Shown: one piece after another, positions 44,913 through 61,750 of the stretch
How the letters are laid out: each line of letters opens with the position of its first letter
Numbering within the stretch: position 1 is the stretch's first letter
From: Shigella phage JK32
Reading direction: 5' to 3' (one strand)
Length of the DNA stretch: 64,000 bases
Sequence record: MK962753.1
The notes under the pieces: generated by a model
The model's input: the letters and a program-made list of their open reading frames with translations, nothing else
Told to the model about the DNA's origin: nothing
Database searches by the model: none
Made by a program: the position numbers and the translations under genes

Positions 44913-44920
44913 TATAAATA
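44913..44920 (+). promoter_or_regulatory. late promoter box TATAAATA upstream of gene 34
   Basis: Exact TATAAATA ~29 nt upstream of ATG 44949. Confidence 0.55.
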
Positions 44921-44948: not shown

Positions 44949-47900
44949 ATGGCAGATTTTTCTCAACATTTCAAGGCCACATTTGGCTTTGACGCTGGTA
45001 ATGAAAAGGTCGTCAATGTAGCATTGGCTGATAAGAATGTCAACACCGATGCGGTCAACGTTGAATTTTTCAATTACCATAATGGTATTACTCAGTATGA
45101 CACAACTCGCGGTTATGATCAATACGGAACTACAATCTATCAAAACCGTCCGTATTATGCAAAAGAAGATATCACAAAGCCAGCAGGTGATTTTGACCCG
45201 ACTAAATGGCAAGCACTGCGCACGGACCCACGTTGGGATTATATTGCAGCAACTTCCGGTGATACTCCTTTAAAGTCTGGTGATTATATCGCAGCAGATG
45301 GTCAATTTGCAAACTTGACTTTCTCTATGCCAAATAAACCAGCCGAGGGAGACACTATAACAGTAAAAGATATCGGTGGCAAGTGTGGTGTTAACGAATT
45401 ATCGTTCTTGAGTTCAGGACATGAGTTTTACCATAACGGTAATGTGTATAACCGAAAATGGTATTGCACTACCCCGTATGCAATGAACTATTTCATCTTT
45501 GTTCGTAATCGTTGGCATGTTTATCAGACAGGAACAGAGCCACGCGGTGTGTACGCACAACCAGCGATTGATGCTATTCAAATGCAGAATGGTGATCAGG
45601 TATTTCGTCGTAGTTCATTGGGTAATATTACCTTAGTGCTTCCTAAGTTTGCCAACAATGGCGACATGATCCAGACTACAGATCTTGACGGGTTAACCGC
45701 AACCAACCACGTTACGGTTAAAGTTCATGAGCACGCAGAAGAACAATCAATTGGCACGTTCGGTCTAAAAGAGATTATCGGTAAGCGTAGCGGTCATGGT
45801 GTATTCATCTTTGATAAGCCTGAAAACTTATGGCGTGTGTGGGATGGTGATCAGTCTGTTCGTCTTAAACCGATCATCGATGACACTCGCTTGCAACCTA
45901 ATAGTTATGTTGCTGTATTTGGTGATCATGATGTTACTCTGACGCTACCGACCAATGTCGAGCCGGGTGATCGTATTCAAGTTTCTATGCAGTATATGCA
46001 CGGAAACCAGAATTGCCGTATTATCACCGCCGCAGAGGATACAAAAATCCTTATGCAGAAAAACATGGTTCAGTTTCCTAAGCGTAGCGAGTACCCATTC
46101 AACGGGACCGAGACGTGGAAGGAAGTGTCTGAATTGTCGTTCAATGCAGCTAGTGATTATGTTCCTTATCTGGAGTTCTCTTATTCAGAAGGTGATGATG
46201 GTAAGAAACATTGGTTGGTAGCACATGCTCACCCAATCGTAGAACGGGTAGATCCGACTCGTAAAGCGCGTGTTGGTGTAATTGCACTGGCTACCCAGAA
46301 TGAAACGAATAAAAACCATGAAGAGAATCCTAGCGACGAAGTTGCAGTAACGCCAAAAATGCTGGCTAATAAAACAGCCAACGAAACTCGACGCGGTATT
46401 GCTCGTATTGCTACTCAGGCGGAAACGCATCAAGATACTGGTTCCAGCTTCCTGGATGATGTTATCGTTACACCTAAAAAGTTAAATGACTGTGTTGCTA
46501 CCGAAGCCCGTCGTGGTGTGATGGAAATTGCAACCCAGCACGAAACCAATGAAGGTTTAGATGATACCCGCGCTATTACTCCTAAGAAATTAGAAGAACG
46601 TCGCGCATCCGAGGATCTCGCTGGTATTGCTGAAATTGTTCAGGCTGGCGGTAGTGCTGCCGATCGACGTGGCGAAGCTGGTACAGGAATCTATAACATC
46701 AATGACCATGCTAAAATTGTTACGCCACAAAACATCAACGAAGTCAAGGCGACCGAAACTTCCCGTGGTGTTGGCTATCTGGCAACTGACGCGGAAGTGC
46801 AAGGTGCTACAGAATCAACCCCGCAAGATGCTTTACTAATCACGACTCGCACGCTAACGAAACGTACTGCTACCGAATCGCGTACTGGTATCGCTGAAAT
46901 TGCAACTCAGGAAGAAACAAACTTAGGTCAAAGTGATAACCATATCATCACGCCTAAAAAGCTGCATACTCGCCGCGCAACGGAAACTTTACACGGTTTA
47001 GCAGAAATTGCAACTCAGCCGGAATTTGACGCAGGTCGTGACGACGCTCGCATTTCTACCCCGTTGAAGATTAAAACCTTCTTTGAGAATGCACAGCGTT
47101 TGAAAGTAGATCCGACTCAGGGGCTTAACCTTACTGGTGATTTGTGGCAAGGTATCATGATCAGCGGTCTGGATGCAACCGAAGACACAAAAGGTGTCGC
47201 GAAAGTTGCAACTACTCAGCTTACGGACGCTGGTCAAGATGATACTACAATCATTACTCCTAAAAAGCTGCAAGGCAAAAAGGCCACCGAAGGTAAAGAA
47301 GGTATTATCCGAGTTGGTACTCAAGCCGAAACCGTGGCTGGTGCACTGGCTAATGTAGCAATTTCTCCGAAGAACTTCAAATATGTTGTTCAGACAGAGG
47401 ATACATGGAAAGCAACCGAAGCGCGTCGTGGTTTCTTGAAAGTTGCTACTCAGGAAAACTGTTTTGTTGGTGATAATCTACAAGGTTCTACTCAAGAGCT
47501 AGGAAACTACCAGCATGACGGAATTGCTGTTACCCCGAAAGGATTAAACTACGCACTTGCTAATTTCTTGCCTAAGATGGCAACCGCTCAGAATAGTTTG
47601 AAATTGGGTAACGTAGAGGCCGCTAAATGGGCGCGTAGAGACATTGACCAGACCATTGAGAGCAATTACACGTTTAATAAAAACGTTAACGTGAAGGGCG
47701 ATTTAGAGTGCTTAAAATCTGGTTCCTTTGAAACGCTGTTTGTGACTAAGAACTCAACCGACGATCCGAGTAATGGTCATCTGGTGTTGGGTGAGCGTGG
47801 AGTTGATGGTCACACCGGAATTACTCTGCATGGCACAACCGCATCGGAAGGCATGGAAAACTCATGGTCTATTATCGTTGGTGGTACTGGAACAGCGCAA

Positions 47901-48689
47901 GTTGTTGATAGTGATGCTATCGCTTTCGGTAAGATTAACGATTCTGGATTCGTCGAGCATTACGCCTTTGCTATGGAACACAATGGCGACGCGGCAGCAT
48001 ATAGAGACTTTATTGCAGGTCGTAACCTGTATGCGAAACAAGGCGGTTTATACATTGTTGACCAGTCTAATCCGGCAATGACTCGTTCCCCAGATGGTAT
48101 GCTGAATATCGGTCACGGTGGAAGTGTTAACATCAAGGCAGGTTATCAAACGTTAACTACAGAGATCGCCGGACAGAAATATCAGATCGTACACGCAGGA
48201 AACGCTGACGAAGTTCTTAACCGTCAGTTTGTTAAAAATGCTGGCGATACAATGGTTGGTAAGCTGATTATGGATAATGCGCCTATTGTTTCTGTTAAGC
48301 ATGAAGCTAGCGCGGCAACCGCTCCGGCAATCGGTAATATCGGCTTCTGGAACATGCGCGTTACTACCCAGAACATCAAAGAAACTTATCCAGAGAAGAA
48401 AAACGGTACTCTGATGCAATGGGGTACTGACGAGGACGGGCTTACCCAGCTTTGGTCCCCTGATGGTACTCATAAACATTATATCCGTTCCGGTACTGGT
48501 GGTCAATGGACCGCATGGGGTGAAATTTACACCAAACAGAATAAGCCTACCGCTCAGGAAATCGGGGCAGTAGTTGCAGAAGGTGGTTTAATGAACTCTA
48601 TGACGGTTCGTGATTGGATCAAAGTTGGTAATGTTAAAATCATCGCCAATAATCTGACTCGTACCGTAGACTTTATCTGGGAAGACTAA
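44949..48689 (+). CDS. 34: long tail fibre proximal subunit gp34
   Basis: 1246 aa; N-terminus and repeated ...ATE.RRG.AEIATQ.E.. units match remembered T4 gp34. Confidence 0.9.
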   Translation: MADFSQHFKATFGFDAGNEKVVNVALADKNVNTDAVNVEFFNYHNGITQYDTTRGYDQYGTTIYQNRPYYAKEDITKPAGDFDPTKWQALRTDPRWDYIAATSGDTPLKSGDYIAADGQFANLTFSMPNKPAEGDTITVKDIGGKCGVNELSFLSSGHEFYHNGNVYNRKWYCTTPYAMNYFIFVRNRWHVYQTGTEPRGVYAQPAIDAIQMQNGDQVFRRSSLGNITLVLPKFANNGDMIQTTDLDGLTATNHVTVKVHEHAEEQSIGTFGLKEIIGKRSGHGVFIFDKPENLWRVWDGDQSVRLKPIIDDTRLQPNSYVAVFGDHDVTLTLPTNVEPGDRIQVSMQYMHGNQNCRIITAAEDTKILMQKNMVQFPKRSEYPFNGTETWKEVSELSFNAASDYVPYLEFSYSEGDDGKKHWLVAHAHPIVERVDPTRKARVGVIALATQNETNKNHEENPSDEVAVTPKMLANKTANETRRGIARIATQAETHQDTGSSFLDDVIVTPKKLNDCVATEARRGVMEIATQHETNEGLDDTRAITPKKLEERRASEDLAGIAEIVQAGGSAADRRGEAGTGIYNINDHAKIVTPQNINEVKATETSRGVGYLATDAEVQGATESTPQDALLITTRTLTKRTATESRTGIAEIATQEETNLGQSDNHIITPKKLHTRRATETLHGLAEIATQPEFDAGRDDARISTPLKIKTFFENAQRLKVDPTQGLNLTGDLWQGIMISGLDATEDTKGVAKVATTQLTDAGQDDTTIITPKKLQGKKATEGKEGIIRVGTQAETVAGALANVAISPKNFKYVVQTEDTWKATEARRGFLKVATQENCFVGDNLQGSTQELGNYQHDGIAVTPKGLNYALANFLPKMATAQNSLKLGNVEAAKWARRDIDQTIESNYTFNKNVNVKGDLECLKSGSFETLFVTKNSTDDPSNGHLVLGERGVDGHTGITLHGTTASEGMENSWSIIVGGTGTAQVVDSDAIAFGKINDSGFVEHYAFAMEHNGDAAAYRDFIAGRNLYAKQGGLYIVDQSNPAMTRSPDGMLNIGHGGSVNIKAGYQTLTTEIAGQKYQIVHAGNADEVLNRQFVKNAGDTMVGKLIMDNAPIVSVKHEASAATAPAIGNIGFWNMRVTTQNIKETYPEKKNGTLMQWGTDEDGLTQLWSPDGTHKHYIRSGTGGQWTAWGEIYTKQNKPTAQEIGAVVAEGGLMNSMTVRDWIKVGNVKIIANNLTRTVDFIWED

Positions 48690-48722: not shown

Positions 48723-49862
48723 ATGACACAAGAGATAGAATTACGCAACACTGGAATTAAGTTTGCGCATTTCGACGAAGACTCCGCGACATTTACCAGC
48801 ATTTCAGAAAACAACTCTGTGATGTATAAACTTGAGGTTAGAGGATCTAATGCGGATTCTACCAAACCAGCAAGAATTAGATTTAATGGAGTGGAGATCG
48901 TTGGCACTGGCTATGAAAATGGCCTAAATTTTAAAGTTCTTACTCCAACTGGACGACTACACGAAGAAAAGGTATTCTATGGTCGCGGTGCTGTTTTGGC
49001 AATGCGTGATTATCTTTCTTTACTGAAAGGTGATTATATCATTGCGATGGCAACGCATGGAGAATTGTTTGCAGATCCGGTAAGTGATGATGTATTCTCT
49101 AAGCTGGGATCTGTATCATTCCCGAATCACATTTTGTTACAGCAAATGCCTCGTGTATCCTATGCAGCGATTTATTCTACTAAAATGGGTAAAATTGTGT
49201 GCGAAGGGATGCAAGCAACTCACGGGGAAGGACAAGATTCATCTATACAAATTGAGAAAGTCTATGATACTATAGATGATCTTGCTATAACAGGAACACC
49301 ACAACGATTTTTAGATTATCCGGTTGAGTATGTTAGCGAAGATGCCGAACATTTCGAGCTAATACAATGGCCTCATGATGAGATCAGCGCACCACTTGAA
49401 GATTTTAACATAAAGGCAGGTGACAAACTATCAATATCTTTTGAATTGTTCCGTGATAGTGCCGCAGCCGCAGCCAACGTAACAGCGCGTTTCTATCACA
49501 ACTATTTTACTGACGGACAATATAAAACTGGTGTTCGATACAATGCCAGCAAAAAAGATCAATGGGAAAAGTTTGAAGCAGTCTATACCGTACCGGAAGG
49601 AGTTGATAGTGTGGTAACTGGTTGCGTTAGATATCCAACCAACTCCAATGAAGGTATTGTTAAAGTTAGAAACATATTAATAACACCGATCAGTGGAGTT
49701 GTCAAAACGACTGGTCCTACTTCCTTTGGTGTTAACGGTGTTAGAACAACTCATATTCAAGATAACGGTGATTTTACTAACCCTGTAATGAGTCTTCTTA
49801 AGCTGCCTAGAGACAATAAACATATCACATCCAACAACTTTAAAGAGTTCGATGTTGATTAA
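48723..49862 (+). CDS. 35: long tail fibre hinge protein gp35
   Basis: 379 aa (T4 372 aa), between 34 and 36. Confidence 0.7.
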   Translation: MTQEIELRNTGIKFAHFDEDSATFTSISENNSVMYKLEVRGSNADSTKPARIRFNGVEIVGTGYENGLNFKVLTPTGRLHEEKVFYGRGAVLAMRDYLSLLKGDYIIAMATHGELFADPVSDDVFSKLGSVSFPNHILLQQMPRVSYAAIYSTKMGKIVCEGMQATHGEGQDSSIQIEKVYDTIDDLAITGTPQRFLDYPVEYVSEDAEHFELIQWPHDEISAPLEDFNIKAGDKLSISFELFRDSAAAAANVTARFYHNYFTDGQYKTGVRYNASKKDQWEKFEAVYTVPEGVDSVVTGCVRYPTNSNEGIVKVRNILITPISGVVKTTGPTSFGVNGVRTTHIQDNGDFTNPVMSLLKLPRDNKHITSNNFKEFDVD

Positions 49863-50023: not shown

Positions 50024-50031
50024 TATAAATA
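50024..50031 (+). promoter_or_regulatory. late promoter box TATAAATA upstream of gene 36
   Basis: Exact TATAAATA ~34 nt upstream of ATG 50065. Confidence 0.55.
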
Positions 50032-50064: not shown

Positions 50065-51555
50065 ATGGCAGATTTGAAACATGGATCTACTGTAGGCGGA
50101 TCTCCCATTTGGACGCAAGGAAACTTGACGATCCAGCCAGCGGGGGACCAGCTTTTCTACAAAGGTCATAAAATCTATACCGCTTTTGATAGACCTTCGG
50201 CTACCGATTTTGATGCTGTTAGTGCATCCGAAGGTGGCACATTTCAAAAGCAAGTTCATTTCGAGGAAGGTTTAAGCGTAGGTAGCGCATCGGCTGGAGA
50301 AACCAAAAAGAATGGTATCTTTAAAGGTCAGAGTGACGCTGCTAATTTTGACGGTGTAAGCTGGGGTTTGCATTCATGGAAATCAATCGGCTTTGTTAAT
50401 GCCCGTGATGGCGTTATCATGGCGTATATTGACACCACAACGGGCGAATTTAAGTCTAAAGGGACTATCGAAGGGACAACCATTAAAGACACAGGTCAAC
50501 GCGTCTATAGCCCTGTTAATAAACCAACGAATAATGATTTAGATTTGGTGTCTCGTCGCGGTGATACTCTCACAGGAACATATAATTTAAACACTGTCAC
50601 TGTTAAACTATCGGTTGATTCGAAATTAATTGCAAGGGAACGTGATTTAATTAATTTTGATGCGACTAAGATCTATTATGGTAACGTTCTTGACACGTTG
50701 GTCTTCCGAAGTAAAGATGAGCCTACCATTTTTGTTAATGGCAAAGAAGGTCGTTTTTATCACACCAACAATAAACCAACTAAAGCCGATGTTGGACTAG
50801 GCAATGTCACCAATGATGCACAGGTTAAACGTGCTGGTGATATTATGGAAGGTAACTTACAAGCGCCTAGAATGTTGGCGACAAACGATCCTGCTGGTCC
50901 TAATGAATTGGTTCGTTTGAGCTACTTTGAGAAAAAATCAATGGTAGCAAATCCAACCATCATTGGAAATGTTGATTGGAACACTCTTATTAATCGCGGT
51001 ATCTATCGTGTGGAAAATGCTGGATCAGGTACTAATAAACCGTCTGATAGCTATTATAACGGCGTTTTGATGGTATATCGCCCAGAAGATGCGGTCGGTA
51101 CTCGTCGAATTGTTCAGGTGTATTATCCTGAATCTATTGACCATCCGATGTGCTGGCGTTCGTGTTCTAATGAATCATGGACTGCATGGAACTATGTAGA
51201 TCACCGTAAATTGGCTGATATTCGCTATGTTAACGTCACTGGCGATACCATGACAGGACCGTTAACTGTTCCGGCTGCAAACGGTGTTAGAACAGCTAAA
51301 ACTAACTATAACGGGGATAACTGTTATGCGGCGTTAAGCGGTGCTGATGGCACTGCTATGATTCACCGCATTAGTGATATTAAAGGGACCGAAAAGCTGG
51401 GGATCACCCACGACTCAAAGGTCGTGTTTTTCCGTTCTAGAAACAATACTCAAACCGTGGACCGCTATCAGCTTTATCATGAAGGTAATAAACCTACTCC
51501 GGCTGATGTTGGCGCGGTTCCACTTAATGCGGTGATTGATTTCGGTACTTTCTAA
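50065..51555 (+). CDS. 36: long tail fibre distal connector gp36 (expanded, 496 aa)
   Basis: N-terminus MADLKHGSTVGGSPIWTQGN parallels T4 gp36 MADLKVGSTTGGSVIWHQGN. Confidence 0.75.
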   Translation: MADLKHGSTVGGSPIWTQGNLTIQPAGDQLFYKGHKIYTAFDRPSATDFDAVSASEGGTFQKQVHFEEGLSVGSASAGETKKNGIFKGQSDAANFDGVSWGLHSWKSIGFVNARDGVIMAYIDTTTGEFKSKGTIEGTTIKDTGQRVYSPVNKPTNNDLDLVSRRGDTLTGTYNLNTVTVKLSVDSKLIARERDLINFDATKIYYGNVLDTLVFRSKDEPTIFVNGKEGRFYHTNNKPTKADVGLGNVTNDAQVKRAGDIMEGNLQAPRMLATNDPAGPNELVRLSYFEKKSMVANPTIIGNVDWNTLINRGIYRVENAGSGTNKPSDSYYNGVLMVYRPEDAVGTRRIVQVYYPESIDHPMCWRSCSNESWTAWNYVDHRKLADIRYVNVTGDTMTGPLTVPAANGVRTAKTNYNGDNCYAALSGADGTAMIHRISDIKGTEKLGITHDSKVVFFRSRNNTQTVDRYQLYHEGNKPTPADVGAVPLNAVIDFGTF

Positions 51556-51625: not shown

Positions 51626-54394
51626 ATGGCAGATTTAAACAGAATCCAATTTAAACGCACTAGCACTAAAGGTCGTCGACCTGATGCTAGTACGATGAAT
51701 CCGGGGGAATTGGCAATCAACCTTGCGGATCAATACATGCTCACTAAAAATGATTCCGGTGCTATTATCAATTTAAGTTGTCCTCCGGTTTATGACCGCG
51801 ATGTTACAATGGCTGGTAAAGTTAAAGGTAATAATTATATCTTAAGTAAAACCGCTAACTATCTGGAAGATCAGACAGCGCGAGATCTTAACTACTTTGG
51901 TGCTTTCCGTACCAATGGTCTTGATGGTTTTCTTGAACTCACGCTAAACGTTCCTCATTCTTCTGGTGTTCAGCATGGTCGAGGATTTACTTTCCAGTAT
52001 GGACACACTGGATCGCGTGTAGAAACTTATGGATATAATAGAGAAGGTCAAAAAGCATTTAGCTATAAAATGTATCACGAAGGTGATAAACCAACTCCAG
52101 GAGAATTGAACGTTTATAGCAAACAAGAAATTGACCGTATGTTTGTTAAAAACGTTAAACTTGCTACAGTTCCTGGTGATACAGTTGAAGGCTATTTTAA
52201 ATTAGCAACTGCAATGATTCCACAAAACGGTCGTAGTGTATTTTTCCGTATTCATGGTGGTAACGGATATAACGTTACTGCATACGATCAAGTTGATATT
52301 GTAGAAATTGTTATTCGCAGTGGAAATAATCGCCCTAAAGGTGTTAACGTTATTGCATATCGCCGAAATACAAACAAATCATTTGATGTTTTGGCTGTTA
52401 ATACTTCTGGTGATAACTATGATATCTATGTTAAATATCAGCGTTACACTGATAACGTTATTGTTGAATTTGGTAAAAGTGTTGATGTTAATCTGGTAGT
52501 TCATGACGTTCCAGATTTTGTTGCTGAACGTCCTGCTGGCGATAATGTTATTGGCGGTCGTGCTGTAACTCTTTTTAACACAGAAAATAAGCGTGGTGTG
52601 TTGAGTTTTGACGATAACACACAAAACAGCTATGATATTGTTCATATGAGTAATGATAAAGGTACTGGTCGGAAATATATTCGTAAATTCCGTAGTAACT
52701 ATAATGAAATGATCTGGCATGAGACGGTTCAAGGTTCCAGTTATCGTCTGGCTACTGGTAGCACTGATGCTCAGGAAATTATAACTATTGAATCTAGTAG
52801 CTCAATTGCTGGAACTCATAAAGGTAATATTATTTCTGGTCGTATGCTGTTAAATGGCGGATCTAATGCCATTACACTACGCCGACCTGCTGGTCAGTCT
52901 AATCATATTGCGTTTCAAGATAATCGTACTGGAGATATTACCCGTCAAGGATGGATCGGTTATGCAAACGCCGATACTGACGTTTTTGAATGGTATAGTG
53001 ATGTAGGTGGCAGTTCTATTCGTCAACATATCGACGGACAGATCGAATTTCAGACAGGTAACATGAAGCGAGTCTATACCAACGGTCAATTCATTTCTTT
53101 ATATGCTGATGGCTTCCGTACTGTATATGGTAACTATGGTTCATGGTGGCGAAATGACGGTAGTAACGTTTATCTGATGAGCACAAAATCAGGCGACACT
53201 ATGGGTCCGTGGAATACCTTTAGGCCGTTCATCTATAGCCTAGCCAATGGTAACGTTACATTGGGGGGTAGTGATGCTGGCAACCATTTAATGCGTCTCA
53301 ATAATGAAAATCGTCAAGTAGAAATAAATGCAACAACACATTTAGGGTCTCGATTATATTGGGAACGTAGCGAAGGATCGGCATCTAGATTTTTTATTAA
53401 GAATTGGGGTAATGGAACTTCTCGCGCTCAAGTGTGGGAACTTGCTGACGAGACAGGTTATCATGTATATTCTCAGCGAAACGACGCGGGTGTTCTTCAA
53501 TTCCGTACTGCTGGTAATTTTGAGACTGGTGGTGATGCTCAAGTAAACGGGACTTTACTTGTCACCAATGTTCTTCGTACAAATAACCAAATACAGATTT
53601 ATCGCGATAACAACAAAGAACTCTGGTTTAAGGATGCTAATGGTACTAACCGTGGTGTTATCTGGGGTGATAGCACAGGTCAAATGCGCATTCGAAACTA
53701 TAACAGCGGAGAATTTGACCATGTTTTCCAGACTGGTATGATTCGCTTAGAACGTGGGTCTGCAAACGGTAGCGACCGTGGTTTGATTCGCGGAGAAGTA
53801 CAAGGTGGTGCATGGTCAGACTGGAAAATTCGTGCGGCTGGATTGTTGGTTGATTGTCCTAATGCTCAAACTTCCGCATATAACGTATGGAAAGCGACCA
53901 AATGGGGTTTAGACCACATCGCGGCAATGGGCGTTCATGTTCCTAGTGGTGTTATTACTAATGCTATGGCACGTCTTCATATTCATACCACAAACTTTGA
54001 CTTTAACGCCTCCGGTGATTTCCAAGCAGGTCGTAATGGTAATTTTAACGATGTGTACATTCGTTCTGATGCTCGCCTTAAAATCAATAAGGAAGAGTAT
54101 AAAGAGAATGCCACTGATAAAGTTAATCGCTTGACGGTATACACCTATGACAAGGTTAAATCTTTAACCGACCGTACTGTCATTGCTCATGAAGTTGGTA
54201 TTATTGCACAGGATCTTGAGAAAGAATTGCCGGAAGCCGTAACAACTTCTAAGATCGGCGATCCAGATAAACCAGAAGAGATCTTAACAATTTCTAACTC
54301 TGCTGTCAACGCTCTTTTAATTAAGGCGTTTCAGGAAATGAGCGAAGAATTGAAAGCCGTTAAAGCTGAACTAGCGGAACTTAAAAAGAATTAA
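51626..54394 (+). CDS. 37: long tail fibre distal subunit gp37 with C-terminal intramolecular chaperone-like domain
   Basis: N-terminus MADLNRIQFKRT..RRPDAS..GELAINL matches T4 gp37 start; C-terminal ~120 aa carries IRSDARLKINKEEY and a terminal coiled coil. Confidence 0.85.
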   Translation: MADLNRIQFKRTSTKGRRPDASTMNPGELAINLADQYMLTKNDSGAIINLSCPPVYDRDVTMAGKVKGNNYILSKTANYLEDQTARDLNYFGAFRTNGLDGFLELTLNVPHSSGVQHGRGFTFQYGHTGSRVETYGYNREGQKAFSYKMYHEGDKPTPGELNVYSKQEIDRMFVKNVKLATVPGDTVEGYFKLATAMIPQNGRSVFFRIHGGNGYNVTAYDQVDIVEIVIRSGNNRPKGVNVIAYRRNTNKSFDVLAVNTSGDNYDIYVKYQRYTDNVIVEFGKSVDVNLVVHDVPDFVAERPAGDNVIGGRAVTLFNTENKRGVLSFDDNTQNSYDIVHMSNDKGTGRKYIRKFRSNYNEMIWHETVQGSSYRLATGSTDAQEIITIESSSSIAGTHKGNIISGRMLLNGGSNAITLRRPAGQSNHIAFQDNRTGDITRQGWIGYANADTDVFEWYSDVGGSSIRQHIDGQIEFQTGNMKRVYTNGQFISLYADGFRTVYGNYGSWWRNDGSNVYLMSTKSGDTMGPWNTFRPFIYSLANGNVTLGGSDAGNHLMRLNNENRQVEINATTHLGSRLYWERSEGSASRFFIKNWGNGTSRAQVWELADETGYHVYSQRNDAGVLQFRTAGNFETGGDAQVNGTLLVTNVLRTNNQIQIYRDNNKELWFKDANGTNRGVIWGDSTGQMRIRNYNSGEFDHVFQTGMIRLERGSANGSDRGLIRGEVQGGAWSDWKIRAAGLLVDCPNAQTSAYNVWKATKWGLDHIAAMGVHVPSGVITNAMARLHIHTTNFDFNASGDFQAGRNGNFNDVYIRSDARLKINKEEYKENATDKVNRLTVYTYDKVKSLTDRTVIAHEVGIIAQDLEKELPEAVTTSKIGDPDKPEEILTISNSAVNALLIKAFQEMSEELKAVKAELAELKKN

Positions 54395-54435
54395 GGAAAA
54401 ATCCCAGGGAAGGGAACTACTAAGGAGAAACGGCT

Positions 54436-54675
54436 ATGGTCTATAATATCGTCATTGGTGCTTTGTCTAGTTTCGGAATGAAATTATTGTCAAAGTTAAT
54501 TAGTGAAAAGATGCTCACTAAAATTTTCTTCTACTGCGCTCGTCGTCTTGCGGCGTATACCAATACGCCAATTGATGATCGTTTTGTGGAAGAACTTTAT
54601 AAGGAGTTTAATAAAGATCAATCAGAAGATAGCAACGAGCAAGATAAACCTAGTGATAGTCAACTACCTAAATAA
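54436..54675 (+). CDS. hypothetical small protein (79 aa) in the position of gene 38
   Basis: SD AAGGAGA; hydrophobic N-terminal segment, acidic C-terminus. Confidence 0.5.
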   Translation: MVYNIVIGALSSFGMKLLSKLISEKMLTKIFFYCARRLAAYTNTPIDDRFVEELYKEFNKDQSEDSNEQDKPSDSQLPK

Positions 54676-54708: not shown

Positions 54709-55365
54709 ATGCAAGTTTCTGAAAAAGAGAAAGACTTTGCTATCTCAAATGTCCTGCGCGCTATTTTCACAACTAAAAGCACGGAGTTGCTCGTACTTCG
54801 TGTTTTTGCTGCCGTCGTGTTGTCCATATTAGCATTTGTCGTTTATAGCAAAAACGAGTTATTTGCCTTGTATAAAGAGACTCGTTATGAGACTTATGCT
54901 CACGTTCTCCAGGTAGAGAAAGACCGCAATTTTGATAATGCAGCACAGGAGCAGTTACAGATAGTTCATGTGTCGGCTGATGCCGATTTTTCTGCTGTTT
55001 TTAGTTTTCGTCCGAAAAACCTAAACTATTTTGTTGATTTGGTGGCATATGAAGGAAAGCTGCCGCATACAATCGATGAAAAGAATTTAGGCGGATTCCC
55101 TATCAATAAAACGAGTGAAGAATATCGTAGGCATCTTTTAGGTAAATCATATTTTACCGATAAAGATTTCCAGTATATTCCATCGAGGGAGAAAAAATTA
55201 GAGACTATCGATATAGGGTTTATGTATTCTTGTCCTATATTCAATCTCGATAATGTCTATTCTGGTAGTATCGCCATTGCATGGAAGAATAAACCGGATA
55301 TTGACATTGAGAATTTAGATACTCTTTGCAATCAATCTGCCAGAATCCTCGGAAGGATTAGATAA
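54709..55365 (+). CDS. t: holin
   Basis: 218 aa; strong match to remembered T4 holin T (LQIVH.S.ADFSAV.SFRPKNLNYFVD..AYEGKLP, C-terminal ARILGR). Confidence 0.85.
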   Translation: MQVSEKEKDFAISNVLRAIFTTKSTELLVLRVFAAVVLSILAFVVYSKNELFALYKETRYETYAHVLQVEKDRNFDNAAQEQLQIVHVSADADFSAVFSFRPKNLNYFVDLVAYEGKLPHTIDEKNLGGFPINKTSEEYRRHLLGKSYFTDKDFQYIPSREKKLETIDIGFMYSCPIFNLDNVYSGSIAIAWKNKPDIDIENLDTLCNQSARILGRIR

Positions 55366-60403: not shown

Positions 60404-61750
60404 TCAACCCTTCTTAAGTTCTTTAAGATCTTTCTTATATTCCTTCATTGCGGTCGTCTTTGTCCAATACTCATATTCACTATGATGTTTATCGGCATCT
60501 TTGACCAGTCGATCATACTCTTCTTGGGTAACGCTGTACAATGGCATAGAAACGAGCTTATCGGCGTATGGACGCAGTTTTTCATGTCCATTGATGGATT
60601 GCATTACCTCGACCTTTTTCTTGCCCTGTAGCTCGATTTCGCCCTTAATTACGCGATCGATAAATTCAGCTTTAGCCATTGCATAATTGTATGCTTCCAG
60701 TGTTTCCGCTTGCATCAATTCAATGCGTTTATCGACATACCCTAATCGGATTTCGACGAATCGACGGATCAGATCGCTCGCTTTCTCGAATACTTCTACT
60801 AAACCACGTTCATTAACCACTACGATATTCTGGGCTACTAACTGCGTTAGTTTAAAATCCTTCATGATTTGCTCATGTCGAGCGGATTCATCTTCGCTTT
60901 TGAAATAATCGCGTTTCAGTGTTACTTCAAATCTGAATCCGTCCTTAGAGCAACGGTCATTATATGAGACAATCAGATCTTTTTCTTCCAGTGCATCCAG
61001 TACCGCTACATATTCTTCACGGTCGAACTTATAAGGAACTTCTGATATTGTCAGTTTAGTCTTGCCGTTTAGTTCATATGTACCCTCAAGAATCACACCA
61101 TCGCGATCATCTCGCGGGATAACTTTACCAGTGAATTTCGGGAATTGAACATTAGGTTCTTTATCCAGTTTTCCGGCAAGTGCTAGCTCTGTGCATTCAA
61201 TGAGGCTTTCCAGTGAATGCGGTAAAATGTCAGTTTTATACCCTGTAGCAATACCACTAATACCATTAGCCAATACCATTGGCACAACTGGCAAGTAGAA
61301 CGCTGGCGGGATGTGTTCCAGGTCTTCGTGCTTAGGTGCGCAATTCATATCTTTATAGATTTTAAAGAAGTTTTCATGCACACGAGCAAAGATATAACGT
61401 GCCGCACCTGCTTTCTGGACTAAACGCGATCCGAAGTTACCTTGACCGTCAAGCAGTGGAGTATTATTGCTCCATGTATTCGCCATGAGTGATCCAGCTT
61501 CTACGGCATTGGTTTCCCCGTGGTGATACCCCAACTCAGCAACACCAGATCCAATATCTGCCATCTTACGGAATTTCTTACGGTCGCCTTTACTCTTTTG
61601 AAGTGCGCACTCCATAACAAAGCGTTGTACTGGTTTAAGACCATCGACTAATTGAGGAATCCCGCGTTCCTCGGCAGAATAGATCGCATATTCCTTAGCT
61701 TCATTATGTACAATGCTTTCAAGGCTGCGGTAAGTAACTGATTTATTCAT
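60404..61750 (-). CDS. 52: DNA topoisomerase II medium subunit gp52
   Basis: Strong match to remembered T4 gp52 (KPVQRFV, LLDGQGNFGSR, AARYIFARV, EHIPPAFYLP); ATG at 61750 with SD GAGGTGA. Confidence 0.9.
   Translation of the reverse strand: MNKSVTYRSLESIVHNEAKEYAIYSAEERGIPQLVDGLKPVQRFVMECALQKSKGDRKKFRKMADIGSGVAELGYHHGETNAVEAGSLMANTWSNNTPLLDGQGNFGSRLVQKAGAARYIFARVHENFFKIYKDMNCAPKHEDLEHIPPAFYLPVVPMVLANGISGIATGYKTDILPHSLESLIECTELALAGKLDKEPNVQFPKFTGKVIPRDDRDGVILEGTYELNGKTKLTISEVPYKFDREEYVAVLDALEEKDLIVSYNDRCSKDGFRFEVTLKRDYFKSEDESARHEQIMKDFKLTQLVAQNIVVVNERGLVEVFEKASDLIRRFVEIRLGYVDKRIELMQAETLEAYNYAMAKAEFIDRVIKGEIELQGKKKVEVMQSINGHEKLRPYADKLVSMPLYSVTQEEYDRLVKDADKHHSEYEYWTKTTAMKEYKKDLKELKKG

What the first reader, a model, noticed from the sequence alone, without database searches (positions are those of the whole stretch)
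54023..54675. gp37 ends in an intramolecular chaperone-like self-cleaving domain and no gp38-sized gene follows
The last ~120 residues of gp37 contain YIRSDARLKINKEEYKENATDK followed by a helical segment and a terminal coiled coil (LKAVKAELAELKKN). The S-D-x-R-L-K motif resembles the autoproteolytic site of the C-terminal intramolecular chaperone domains of tail spikes and fibres (endosialidase, T5 pb1). The gene before holin t is only 79 aa, too small to be a T4 gp38 chaperone or a T2-type gp38 adhesin. This would mean fibre-tip folding is self-chaperoned and receptor binding is by gp37 itself.
Basis: partly seen in the sequence, partly recalled or inferred. Interest (0 to 1): 0.55.

Follow-up and report, generated by a model that had tools for sequence, protein, structure and literature searches.

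The report
Self-cleaving chaperone on RB49-type gp37
This is the known T2/S16-type arrangement, in which a separate gp38 adhesin, encoded far away in these phages, caps the cut fibre tip, so the finding is ordinary.

Summary
gp37 (51626-54394, 922 aa) ends in a Peptidase_S74 intramolecular chaperone domain (aa 814-922; Pfam E 9e-12, above the curated cut-off). It has the DVYIR|SDARLK cleavage motif, with Ser814 and Lys819 at +5. Only a 79-aa ORF (54436-54675) lies between gp37 and holin t.

The window is a Krischvirus (RB49-like; closest match GEC-3S, 95.8%). In RB49 and GEC-3S, a T2-type gp38 adhesin gene lies about 105 kb from g37, at a position the window does not cover. Most of the other close relatives listed also carry this gp38, apart from g37. 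Published work already states three things:
- RB49 g38 is displaced and a small ORF sits in its place.
- RB49 gp37 has a self-cleaving chaperone whose removal lets gp38 dock.
- RB49 host-range mutations map to gp38.

The chaperone domain here is about 70% identical to that of phage Ox2 gp37, where g38 and t follow directly. So folding is chaperone-assisted, but receptor binding is most likely by gp38, not gp37.

The 79-aa ORF does not replace gp38. In Krischvirus FL04 it sits between g38 and t. It belongs to a widespread small phage family of unknown function (phrog_402).

Verdict: already known, low interest.

The parts
51626..54394 (+). gene 37, long tail fibre distal subunit precursor (922 aa)
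   Evidence: ORF. phrog_1699 'long tail fiber protein distal subunit', E 1.8e-180. 95.8% nucleotide identity to the GEC-3S gene 37-t region. 61% amino-acid identity to RB49 gp37, with a conserved N-terminus and chaperone domain and a variable middle.
54050..54064 (+). DVYIR (aa 809-813), predicted last five residues of mature gp37 and the gp38-docking tip
   Evidence: Identical to the DVYIR^SDGRLKI junction described for the fPS phages and aligned there to S16 DLNVS^SDRRIKK (PMC7917993). Conserved in Ox2 and RB49 gp37 and in 13 other homologues.
54065..54067 (+). Ser814 codon (TCT), predicted autoproteolytic nucleophile. The predicted scissile bond is Arg813|Ser814.
   Evidence: Position. Aligned with the S of 'SSDRRIKK' in S16 gp37 (6f45_A). 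Equivalent to T5 pb1 Ser1264, whose S1264A mutant does not cleave (PMC4690869).
54080..54082 (+). Lys819 codon, predicted general base at Ser+5
   Evidence: Same spacing as T5 Ser1264/Lys1269 (PMC4690869). K is conserved in the alignments.
54065..54391 (+). C-terminal intramolecular chaperone domain (aa 814-922, 109 aa), predicted to be released after trimerisation
   Evidence: Pfam PF13884 Peptidase_S74 on aa 814-873, E 9.2e-12, 45.5 bits against cut-off 22. Profile match to 6f45_A, E 7.6e-8, and weakly to the MyRF ICA domain 7dc3. Foldseek top hits are 7dc3 and 3gw6, from a low-confidence model. About 70% identical to the C-termini of Ox2, RB32 and RB10 gp37.
54296..54388 (+). Terminal helix (aa 891-921), predicted central coiled coil of the chaperone trimer
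   Evidence: AlphaFold2 helix H115-145 of the 146-aa model. [quoted passage not shown]
54422..54427 (+). Ribosome-binding site AAGGAG for the 79-aa ORF
   Evidence: Read directly; 8 nt upstream of the ATG at 54436.
54436..54675 (+). 79-aa ORF (RB49 'Dc5' / RB49p252 homologue), phrog_402 family, function unknown. Not a gp38 substitute.
   Evidence: phrog_402, E 5.5e-20. Homologues carry a precomputed PF26925 label. RB49 annotation. 95% identical ORF lies between g38 and t in Krischvirus FL04. Family members occur in Felixounavirus, Kolesnikvirus, Grimontviridae, Lahexavirus and Vibrio phages.
54709..55365 (+). Gene t, holin T
   Evidence: Pfam PF11031 Phage_holin_T, E 1.3e-60. phrog_860 holin, E 3e-88.
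50024..50031 (+). T4-type late promoter-like TATAAATA upstream of gene 36, a candidate promoter for g36-g37-ORF79-t
   Evidence: Exact-match scan. The match count in the window is no higher than chance, so the assignment rests on position only. No terminator-like site was found between g37 and t.

Best explanation
gp37 of this RB49-like Krischvirus is a T2/Ox2/S16-type distal long-tail-fibre subunit.

Proposed mechanism:
1. The last 109 residues (Ser814-Asn922) form a Peptidase_S74 intramolecular chaperone. Three copies associate through a terminal coiled coil and template trimerisation of the fibre tip.
2. Once the tip is folded, Ser814, activated by Lys819, cleaves the Arg813|Ser814 bond. 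The chaperone then leaves, taking the Ser with it.
3. This exposes a flat trimeric tip ending in DVYIR.
4. One gp38 adhesin docks onto that tip through its tryptophan-bearing N-terminal domain. gp38, not gp37, makes the specific receptor contact.

In this lineage g38 has moved about 105 kb away, into a cluster of mostly unnamed genes transcribed in the opposite direction. As a result g37 is followed only by a 79-aa ORF and holin t.

Shown here: domain membership, motif register, gene order, homology to Ox2 and S16 gp37, and the presence and position of gp38 in relatives.

Inferred: actual cleavage, gp38 docking, and the presence of gp38 in this particular genome, because its expected position lies outside the window.
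For: - Pfam S74 hit above the curated cut-off.
- Ser814 and Lys819 are in register with S16 gp37 (6f45_A, E 1.1e-4 single sequence, 7.6e-8 profile) and with T5 Ser1264/Lys1269 (PMC4690869).
- The junction DVYIR^SD is identical to the one described as the gp38-docking tip (PMC7917993).
- The chaperone domain is about 70% identical to that of Ox2 gp37, whose record X05675 has g37-g38-t.
- RB49 gene 38 lies at 45367-46143 and GEC-3S gp38 at 45726-46505. Both are far from g37. The RB49 protein matches Pfam GP38 (E 7e-72) and Gp38_N (E 6e-18). Both align end to end with Ox2 gp38, including the N-terminal GW.GSS..ETGQRWMS.
- gp38 is present in GEC-3S, JEP8, Ec_Makalu_001/002/003, ELT4, E26, Sf20, ECD7, Brandy, JSE, W115 and other closest relatives.
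- Literature: RB49 g38 is displaced and a small ORF sits in its place (PMC3157838). RB49 gp37 carries a self-cleaving chaperone, gp38 attaches after its removal, and E230K/Y231S host-range mutations lie in gp38 (PMC9569957).
Against: - The window does not contain gp38, so its presence in this genome is inferred from synteny with relatives, not seen.
- Cleavage and docking have not been demonstrated for any Krischvirus in the sources I read.
- The structure model of the domain is low-confidence (pLDDT 60, a monomer model of a trimeric domain), and the fold matches are weak.
- gp37 just upstream of the tip is only 30-60% identical to RB49, so a contribution of the gp37 shaft to binding is not excluded.
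Confidence: 0.85

Rival explanations
1. The chaperone domain folds the tip and is cleaved off, the phage has no gp38, and the unmasked gp37 tip itself binds the receptor.
For: An S74 chaperone domain is present. No gp38 is adjacent or anywhere in the 64-kb window. In T5 pb1, cleavage unmasks a receptor-binding tip of the fibre itself (PMC4690869). The distal shaft of gp37 varies between relatives.
Against: RB49 and GEC-3S encode gp38 at a displaced locus, and the other close relatives listed also carry it. RB49 host range maps to gp38 (PMC9569957). The tip ends in the DVYIR docking sequence shared with gp38-using phages. There is no T5-like bullet domain or other receptor-binding domain hit before the cleavage site.
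Confidence: 0.05
2. The 79-aa ORF has taken over the gp38 role, either as a mini-adhesin or as a dedicated fibre chaperone, since it occupies the g38 slot.
For: Its position is immediately after g37, with a strong ribosome-binding site. Homologues also follow the last tail fibre or tail gene in Felixounavirus and Kolesnikvirus.
Against: In Krischvirus FL04 the same ORF (95% identical) lies between an adjacent g38 and t, so the two co-exist. It has no glycine-rich motifs and no similarity to gp38. The Felixounavirus fibre that precedes its homologue has no S74 domain. In two Vibrio phages it follows a GH108 endolysin, not a fibre gene.
Confidence: 0.03
3. The S74 domain is an inactive relic. 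gp37 is not cleaved and the domain stays on the virion.
For: Cleavage has not been shown experimentally for this protein.
Against: The catalytic Ser and Lys and the surrounding NDVYIRSDxRLK motif are conserved in all homologues that span the junction. The domain is 97% identical to RB49's, while the shaft has diverged to about 30-60%, which points to strong purifying selection. An uncleaved chaperone domain would cover the tip, as the uncleaved T5 mutant no longer competes for adsorption (PMC4690869).
Confidence: 0.04

Closest known systems
RB49 / GEC-3S (Krischvirus) long tail fibre locus: g37 - small ORF (Dc5) - t, with g38 displaced
   Same: Identical gene order and orientation. The chaperone domain is 97% identical to RB49's and the 79-aa ORF is 98.7% identical to GEC-3S's. 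The published description matches (PMC3157838; PMC9569957).
   Different: The central and distal shaft of gp37 (aa ~160-805, most strongly ~280-725) is a different mosaic from RB49's, at 61% identity overall with several indels. The gp38 locus itself is not in the window.
T2/T6/Ox2-type fibre tip (Tequatrovirus) and Salmonella phage S16 gp37-gp38 complex (PDB 6F45)
   Same: gp37 ends in an S74 chaperone domain that is autocleaved, after which the gp38 adhesin caps the tip. The junction and chaperone domain are homologous. Krischvirus gp38 is homologous along its full length to Ox2 gp38.
   Different: In those phages g38 lies directly between g37 and t. Here it does not. The S16 junction reads DLNVS^SDRRIKK rather than DVYIR^SDARLK.
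[quoted passage not shown]
   Same: Same Pfam family. The Ser nucleophile and Lys at +5 are present. The domain is a C-terminal trimeric coiled coil with an alpha/beta body, and it is released after folding. The T5-like L-shaped fibre chaperone domains are about 43% identical.
   Different: In T5 and K1F the unmasked protein is itself the receptor-binding or enzymatic part. Here the unmasked tip is expected to be a socket for a separate adhesin.
T4 gp37 / gp38
   Same: Same position in the fibre, same N-terminal attachment to gp36, and a shared Gp34_trimer-like shaft domain.
   Different: T4 gp37 carries its own receptor-binding tip and needs the unrelated T4 gp38 chaperone (PMC3157838). Here Pfam finds a C-terminal S74 domain and no T4-type tip domain.

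Membership tests
Peptidase S74 / C-terminal intramolecular chaperone domain (Pfam PF13884) | Profile match above the curated gathering score | tested here: met
   45.5 bits against cut-off 22, E 9.2e-12, aa 814-873. 49.3 bits on the isolated C-terminus.
Peptidase S74 / C-terminal intramolecular chaperone domain (Pfam PF13884) | Catalytic Ser at the start of the domain, with Lys five residues downstream | tested here: met
   Ser814 and Lys819 in S-D-A-R-L-K. Aligned with S16 gp37 SDRRIK. Same spacing as T5 Ser1264/Lys1269.
Peptidase S74 / C-terminal intramolecular chaperone domain (Pfam PF13884) | Located at the extreme C-terminus of a trimeric fibre or spike protein, ending in a helix that forms a trimeric coiled coil | tested here: met
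   The domain is the last 109 aa of gp37. A terminal helix is predicted for aa 891-921 (low confidence). The trimeric state was not modelled.
Peptidase S74 / C-terminal intramolecular chaperone domain (Pfam PF13884) | Fold like the solved chaperone domains (3GW6, 4UW8, 7DC3) | tested here: inconclusive
   The monomer model has pLDDT 60. Foldseek ranks 7dc3 (E 8.5e-3, TM 0.32) and 3gw6 (E 0.09) first, but the scores are weak.
Peptidase S74 / C-terminal intramolecular chaperone domain (Pfam PF13884) | Autoproteolytic release demonstrated | not testable with these tools
   Needs virion mass spectrometry or expression of wild type against S814A.
T2/S16-type gp37-gp38 adhesin system | gp37 ends in the conserved docking junction followed by the chaperone domain | tested here: met
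   GNFNDVYIR|SDARLK matches Ox2, RB49 and the fPS phages.
T2/S16-type gp37-gp38 adhesin system | The genome encodes a gp38 with the Gp38_N attachment domain and a glycine-rich-motif adhesin domain | not testable with these tools
   The expected locus (RB49 about 45 kb) lies outside the 64-kb window, and there is no hit in the window. The feature is met in RB49. gp38 is present in GEC-3S and in at least 20 close relatives.
T2/S16-type gp37-gp38 adhesin system | g38 immediately downstream of g37 | tested here: not met
   Only a 79-aa ORF lies between g37 and t. This is the known RB49 arrangement. It is a gene-order feature, not a mechanistic one. Krischvirus FL04 keeps g38 adjacent.
T4-type gp37 (self-adhesin with gp38 chaperone) | C-terminal T4-type receptor-binding tip on gp37, with no S74 domain | tested here: not met
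   Pfam gives Gp34_trimer plus Peptidase_S74 only, with no T4-type tip domain. The gp37_trimer and Gp10_C domains found in the Felixounavirus fibre are absent here.

The most novel reading that the evidence does not exclude
The 79-aa ORF that always sits just upstream of holin t in Krischvirus (phrog_402 / PF26925) may be an uncharacterised lysis-associated small membrane protein, such as a holin or antiholin partner.

Its features are a weakly hydrophobic N-terminal helix pair, an invariant F..E..FF..T.T..DD.F motif and an acidic tail. It is shared with Felixounavirus, Kolesnikvirus, Grimontviridae, Lahexavirus and Vibrio siphophages.

The reading rests on three independent adjacencies:
- to holin T in Krischvirus;
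- to a GH108 endolysin in two Vibrio phages;
- to a TM-plus-coiled-coil, i-spanin-like ORF in Ounavirinae.
Probability: 0.15. Interest if true: 0.4.

Novelty: already known. Interest (0 to 1): 0.1.

Why it matters
For annotation and host-range prediction, the practical point is a caution. An S74 domain on gp37 and the lack of an adjacent g38 do not mean that gp37 is the adhesin. In RB49-like phages the host-range determinant gp38 is encoded about 105 kb away. Engineering or predicting specificity must therefore target that gene. Nothing here changes the current understanding of T-even fibre assembly. The only open item is the function of the conserved 79-aa ORF next to the holin.

Tried and rejected
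- I searched the window for gp38 by tblastn with RB49 and GEC-3S gp38 and found nothing (best E 1.3). A crude glycine-motif screen of all ORFs of 150 aa or more also found nothing.
- I first guessed that RB49ORF143w (279 aa, between genes 8 and 9) or ORF164c was the displaced gp38. Pfam shows a methyltransferase and a weak DprA-like hit instead. The real gene 38 was then found at RB49 45367-46143.
- The AlphaFold2 model of aa 777-922 came out at low confidence (pLDDT 60). The Foldseek matches to 7dc3 and 3gw6 are therefore used only as weak support.
- The tool cannot predict trimers.
- For the 79-aa ORF, Pfam and NCBIfam gave no hit. The homologue search returned only close relatives labelled PF26925, a family absent from the local Pfam copy.
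- The all-against-representatives HMM search found only 20 clusters, nearly all 61-87 aa, and no informative fusion. One 196-aa hit is a tandem-repeat protein that matches only the TDTPxD motif and is probably spurious.
- A literature search for PF26925 / phrog_402 found nothing.
- I tested the idea that the small ORF is tied to S74-bearing fibres and rejected it. The Felixounavirus fibre upstream of its homologue has no S74 domain.
- The PeSL paper (PMC4122927) was checked for an account of how g38 moved. It says nothing specific.
Full report
**What is in the sequence**

The region holds a co-directional run of long-tail-fibre genes on the + strand:
- gp34: 44949-48689
- gp35: 48723-49862
- gp36: 50065-51555
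- gp37: 51626-54394 (922 aa)
- a 79-aa ORF: 54436-54675
- holin T: 54709-55365

The Ser is residue 814 (nt 54065-54067) and the Lys of S-D-A-R-L-K is residue 819. The protein ends in ...LKAVKAELAELKKN. The 79-aa ORF has a good AAGGAG ribosome-binding site 8 nt upstream of its start codon. No other ORF of meaningful size lies between gp37 and t on either strand.

**Is the C-terminus an S74-type intramolecular chaperone?**

Yes, on several lines of evidence.
- Pfam PF13884 (Peptidase_S74, 'chaperone of endosialidase') matches aa 814-873 at E 9.2e-12 and 45.5 bits, against a curated cut-off of 22. On the isolated C-terminal 123 aa the match is E 5.9e-13.
- Against PDB sequences, the C-terminal 282 aa hit only the distal long-tail-fibre subunit of Salmonella phage S16 (6f45_A, E 1.1e-4). 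The alignment puts DVYIRSDARLK against DLNVSSDRRIK.
- A profile of 17 homologues raises that hit to E 7.6e-8 and adds a marginal hit to the MyRF ICA domain 7dc3 through the G(I/V)IAQ(D/E)...LPEAV motif.
- All homologues that span the junction keep NDVYIRSDxRLK.
- An AlphaFold2 monomer model of aa 777-922 is low-confidence (pLDDT 60). It shows beta elements followed by one long terminal helix at aa 891-921.
- Foldseek ranks the MyRF ICA domain (7dc3) and the K1F endosialidase intramolecular chaperone (3gw6) first, but with weak scores. I treat this only as consistent, not as proof.

The T5 pb1 structure paper (PMC4690869) gives the mechanism. The Thr1263-Ser1264 bond is cut. Ser1264 is activated by Lys1269, which is Ser+5. 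The S1264A mutant does not cleave. The Ser leaves with the chaperone. The chaperone is a trimeric coiled coil flanked by an alpha/beta body.

For S16 and related T-even phages the site is DLNVS^SDRRIKK, equivalent to DVYIR^SDGRLKI (PMC7917993). By homology, the window's gp37 should be cut between Arg813 and Ser814. That would release a 109-aa chaperone and leave an 813-aa mature subunit ending in DVYIR. Cleavage itself is inferred, not shown.

**What phage is this, and where is gp38?**

The gp37-t segment matches 58 phage records, essentially all of them RB49-like Krischvirus. The best is GEC-3S, at 95.8% identity over 100% of the query. Gene sizes and order at both ends of the window line up with RB49 from about 99 kb (inh, uvsW) to about 164 kb (rIIB).

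RB49 has exactly the arrangement g37 - 79-aa ORF ('Dc5') - t. Its gene 38 is annotated at 45367-46143 on the other strand, 'similar to T2 and RB69 gp38 adhesin'. That protein matches Pfam GP38 (E 7e-72) and Gp38_N (E 6e-18).

GEC-3S has the same gene at 45726-46505. tblastn with either gp38 finds one copy, located apart from g37 where positions can be compared, in these relatives: GEC-3S, E26, Sf20, JEP8, ELT4, Ec_Makalu_001/002/003, 011D4, PHB13, SSG23, SFHK24, ECD7, Brandy, Cognac, JSE, W115, AV108, Delraymugoa and Aragogtheria.

The window has no gp38 (best tblastn E 1.3). That is expected, because the syntenic position lies outside it.

**What the literature already says**

- Trojet et al. 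[quoted passage not shown]' [quoted passage not shown]
- Efimov et al. [quoted passage not shown] ' They also isolated RB49 host-range mutants with E230K and Y231S in gp38.

Both halves of the observation are therefore published for this phage group.

**Direct comparison with a classical gp38-using phage**

The chaperone domain is about 70% identical to the gp37 C-termini of Ox2, RB32 and RB10. It is about 43% identical to those of T5-like L-shaped fibres. In the Ox2 record X05675, gene 37 is followed directly by gene 38 ('receptor-recognizing protein', 266 aa) and then t.

Window gp37 aligns with Ox2 gp37 through GNGNF(N/S)DVYIRSD(A/G)RLKINK and the whole chaperone domain. RB49 and GEC-3S gp38 align end to end with Ox2 gp38 at 50% identity. 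The alignment includes the N-terminal GW(V/I)GSS.V.ETGQRWMS segment that carries the docking tryptophans (role of the tryptophans from PMC7917993).

So this is the same fibre-tip module, with g38 relocated.

**Verdict on the interpretation**

The domain assignment and the gene-order statement are right. The conclusion 'receptor binding is by gp37 itself' does not follow and is contradicted for the closest relatives. 'Self-chaperoned' is also only partly right, because RB49 keeps gp57A (61192-61452). gp57A is the general fibre chaperone; its requirement for T2-type gp37 is from my own knowledge of the field and was not tested here.

**The 79-aa ORF**

It belongs to phrog_402 (E 5.5e-20, function unknown). 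Its close homologues carry a precomputed PF26925 label that is absent from the local Pfam copy.

It is not a stand-in for gp38. In Krischvirus FL04 the order is g37 - g38 - 79-aa ORF (95% identical) - t. That paper (PMC12032242) notes that some Krischvirus phages have g38 near the holin and others do not.

The family consists of 61-87-aa proteins. They have a weakly hydrophobic N-terminal helix (Kyte-Doolittle 19-residue maximum 1.3-1.9) and an invariant F..E..FF..T.T..DD.F pattern.

Family members occur in these contexts:
- after the last tail fibre or tail gene in Felixounavirus and Kolesnikvirus. The Felixounavirus fibre has no S74 domain. The next ORF there is a TM-plus-coiled-coil protein;
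- directly after a GH108 endolysin in two Vibrio phages;
- between the head or needle genes and the adaptor or tail-tube genes in Salmonella phage 7-11, Cronobacter phage A24 and Aeromonas phage LAh_6.

Its function remains unknown. A lysis-associated role is a low-confidence guess based on these adjacencies.

**Novelty and score**

Everything central to the finding is already described for RB49-like phages, so I rate it 'already known', with low interest. There are two small additions. First, the small ORF co-exists with an adjacent g38 in FL04, so it is not a slot replacement. Second, the family is widespread and often sits next to lysis genes.

Noticed in passing
window 51626-54394 (gp37 aa ~160-805): gp37 is a mosaic relative to RB49. 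The first 160 aa and the chaperone domain (aa 806-922) are at least 95% identical. Residues ~280-725 fall to about 30-60% identity with several indels, including a 30-aa and a 23-aa gap. The chaperone domain, the small ORF and t look like a conserved recombination anchor.
   Followed up: partly
L004 7727-8506 (GEC-3S gp38), outside the window: GEC-3S-type Krischvirus gp38 is 87-90% identical over aa 6-259 to gp38 of many Tequatrovirus phages (slur02/04, teqsoen, FriedrichMiescher, JK38). It is only about 83% identical to RB49 gp38, which implies recent exchange of the adhesin between genera.
   Followed up: no
L013 1145-5757 (Escherichia phage FL04): A Krischvirus with the canonical order g37 - g38 - 79-aa ORF - t. 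Its gp37 is only about 37% identical to the window's over the distal half, but the chaperone domain is conserved. Two fibre-tip gene arrangements therefore co-exist within one genus.
   Followed up: partly
L005 5187-5558 and L010 3701-4036: In Felixounavirus VpaE1 and Kolesnikvirus, the phrog_402 ORF is followed by a 111-123-aa protein (phrog_4038 in VpaE1; the Kolesnikvirus ORF was not scanned). It has an N-terminal TM helix and a long coiled-coil-like tail (weak Pfam DivIC hit in VpaE1). This topology resembles an i-spanin and hints at a cryptic lysis cassette after the tail fibre genes.
   Followed up: partly
window 50065-51555 (gp36): gp36 is 496 aa, far longer than the roughly 220 aa quoted for T4-type gp36 (PMC3157838). 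Its Pfam Phage_T4_gp36 hit is sub-threshold (21.4 bits against 26). Its N-terminal ~60-80 aa match the N-terminal positions of several distal-subunit (gp37-type) PHROG profiles.
   Followed up: no
window 48723-49862 (gp35): gp35 has a sub-threshold Pfam hit to the ILEI (interleukin-like EMT inducer / FAM3) domain at aa 66-134 (E 3.3e-4, 21.5 bits against 27).
   Followed up: no
window 52925-53236 (gp37 aa 434-537): The gp37 shaft contains a Gp34_trimer domain (Pfam E 6e-22). It is similar to the T4 gp34 C-terminal region (4uxe, 5nxf) and to phage Mu tail fibre protein S (5yvq). This is an example of fibre modules shared between proximal and distal subunits.
   Followed up: no
window 44913-44920 and 50024-50031: Exact T4-type late-promoter boxes TATAAATA lie just upstream of gp34 and gp36. 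The total count in the window (5) is no higher than chance, so only their positions are suggestive.
   Followed up: no
P0038 (from the representative search): A 196-aa protein with six tandem YKYTDTPADKRSVDDLHKR repeats matched only the TDTPxDD motif of the 79-aa family. It is probably a chance or low-complexity match rather than a relative.
   Followed up: partly
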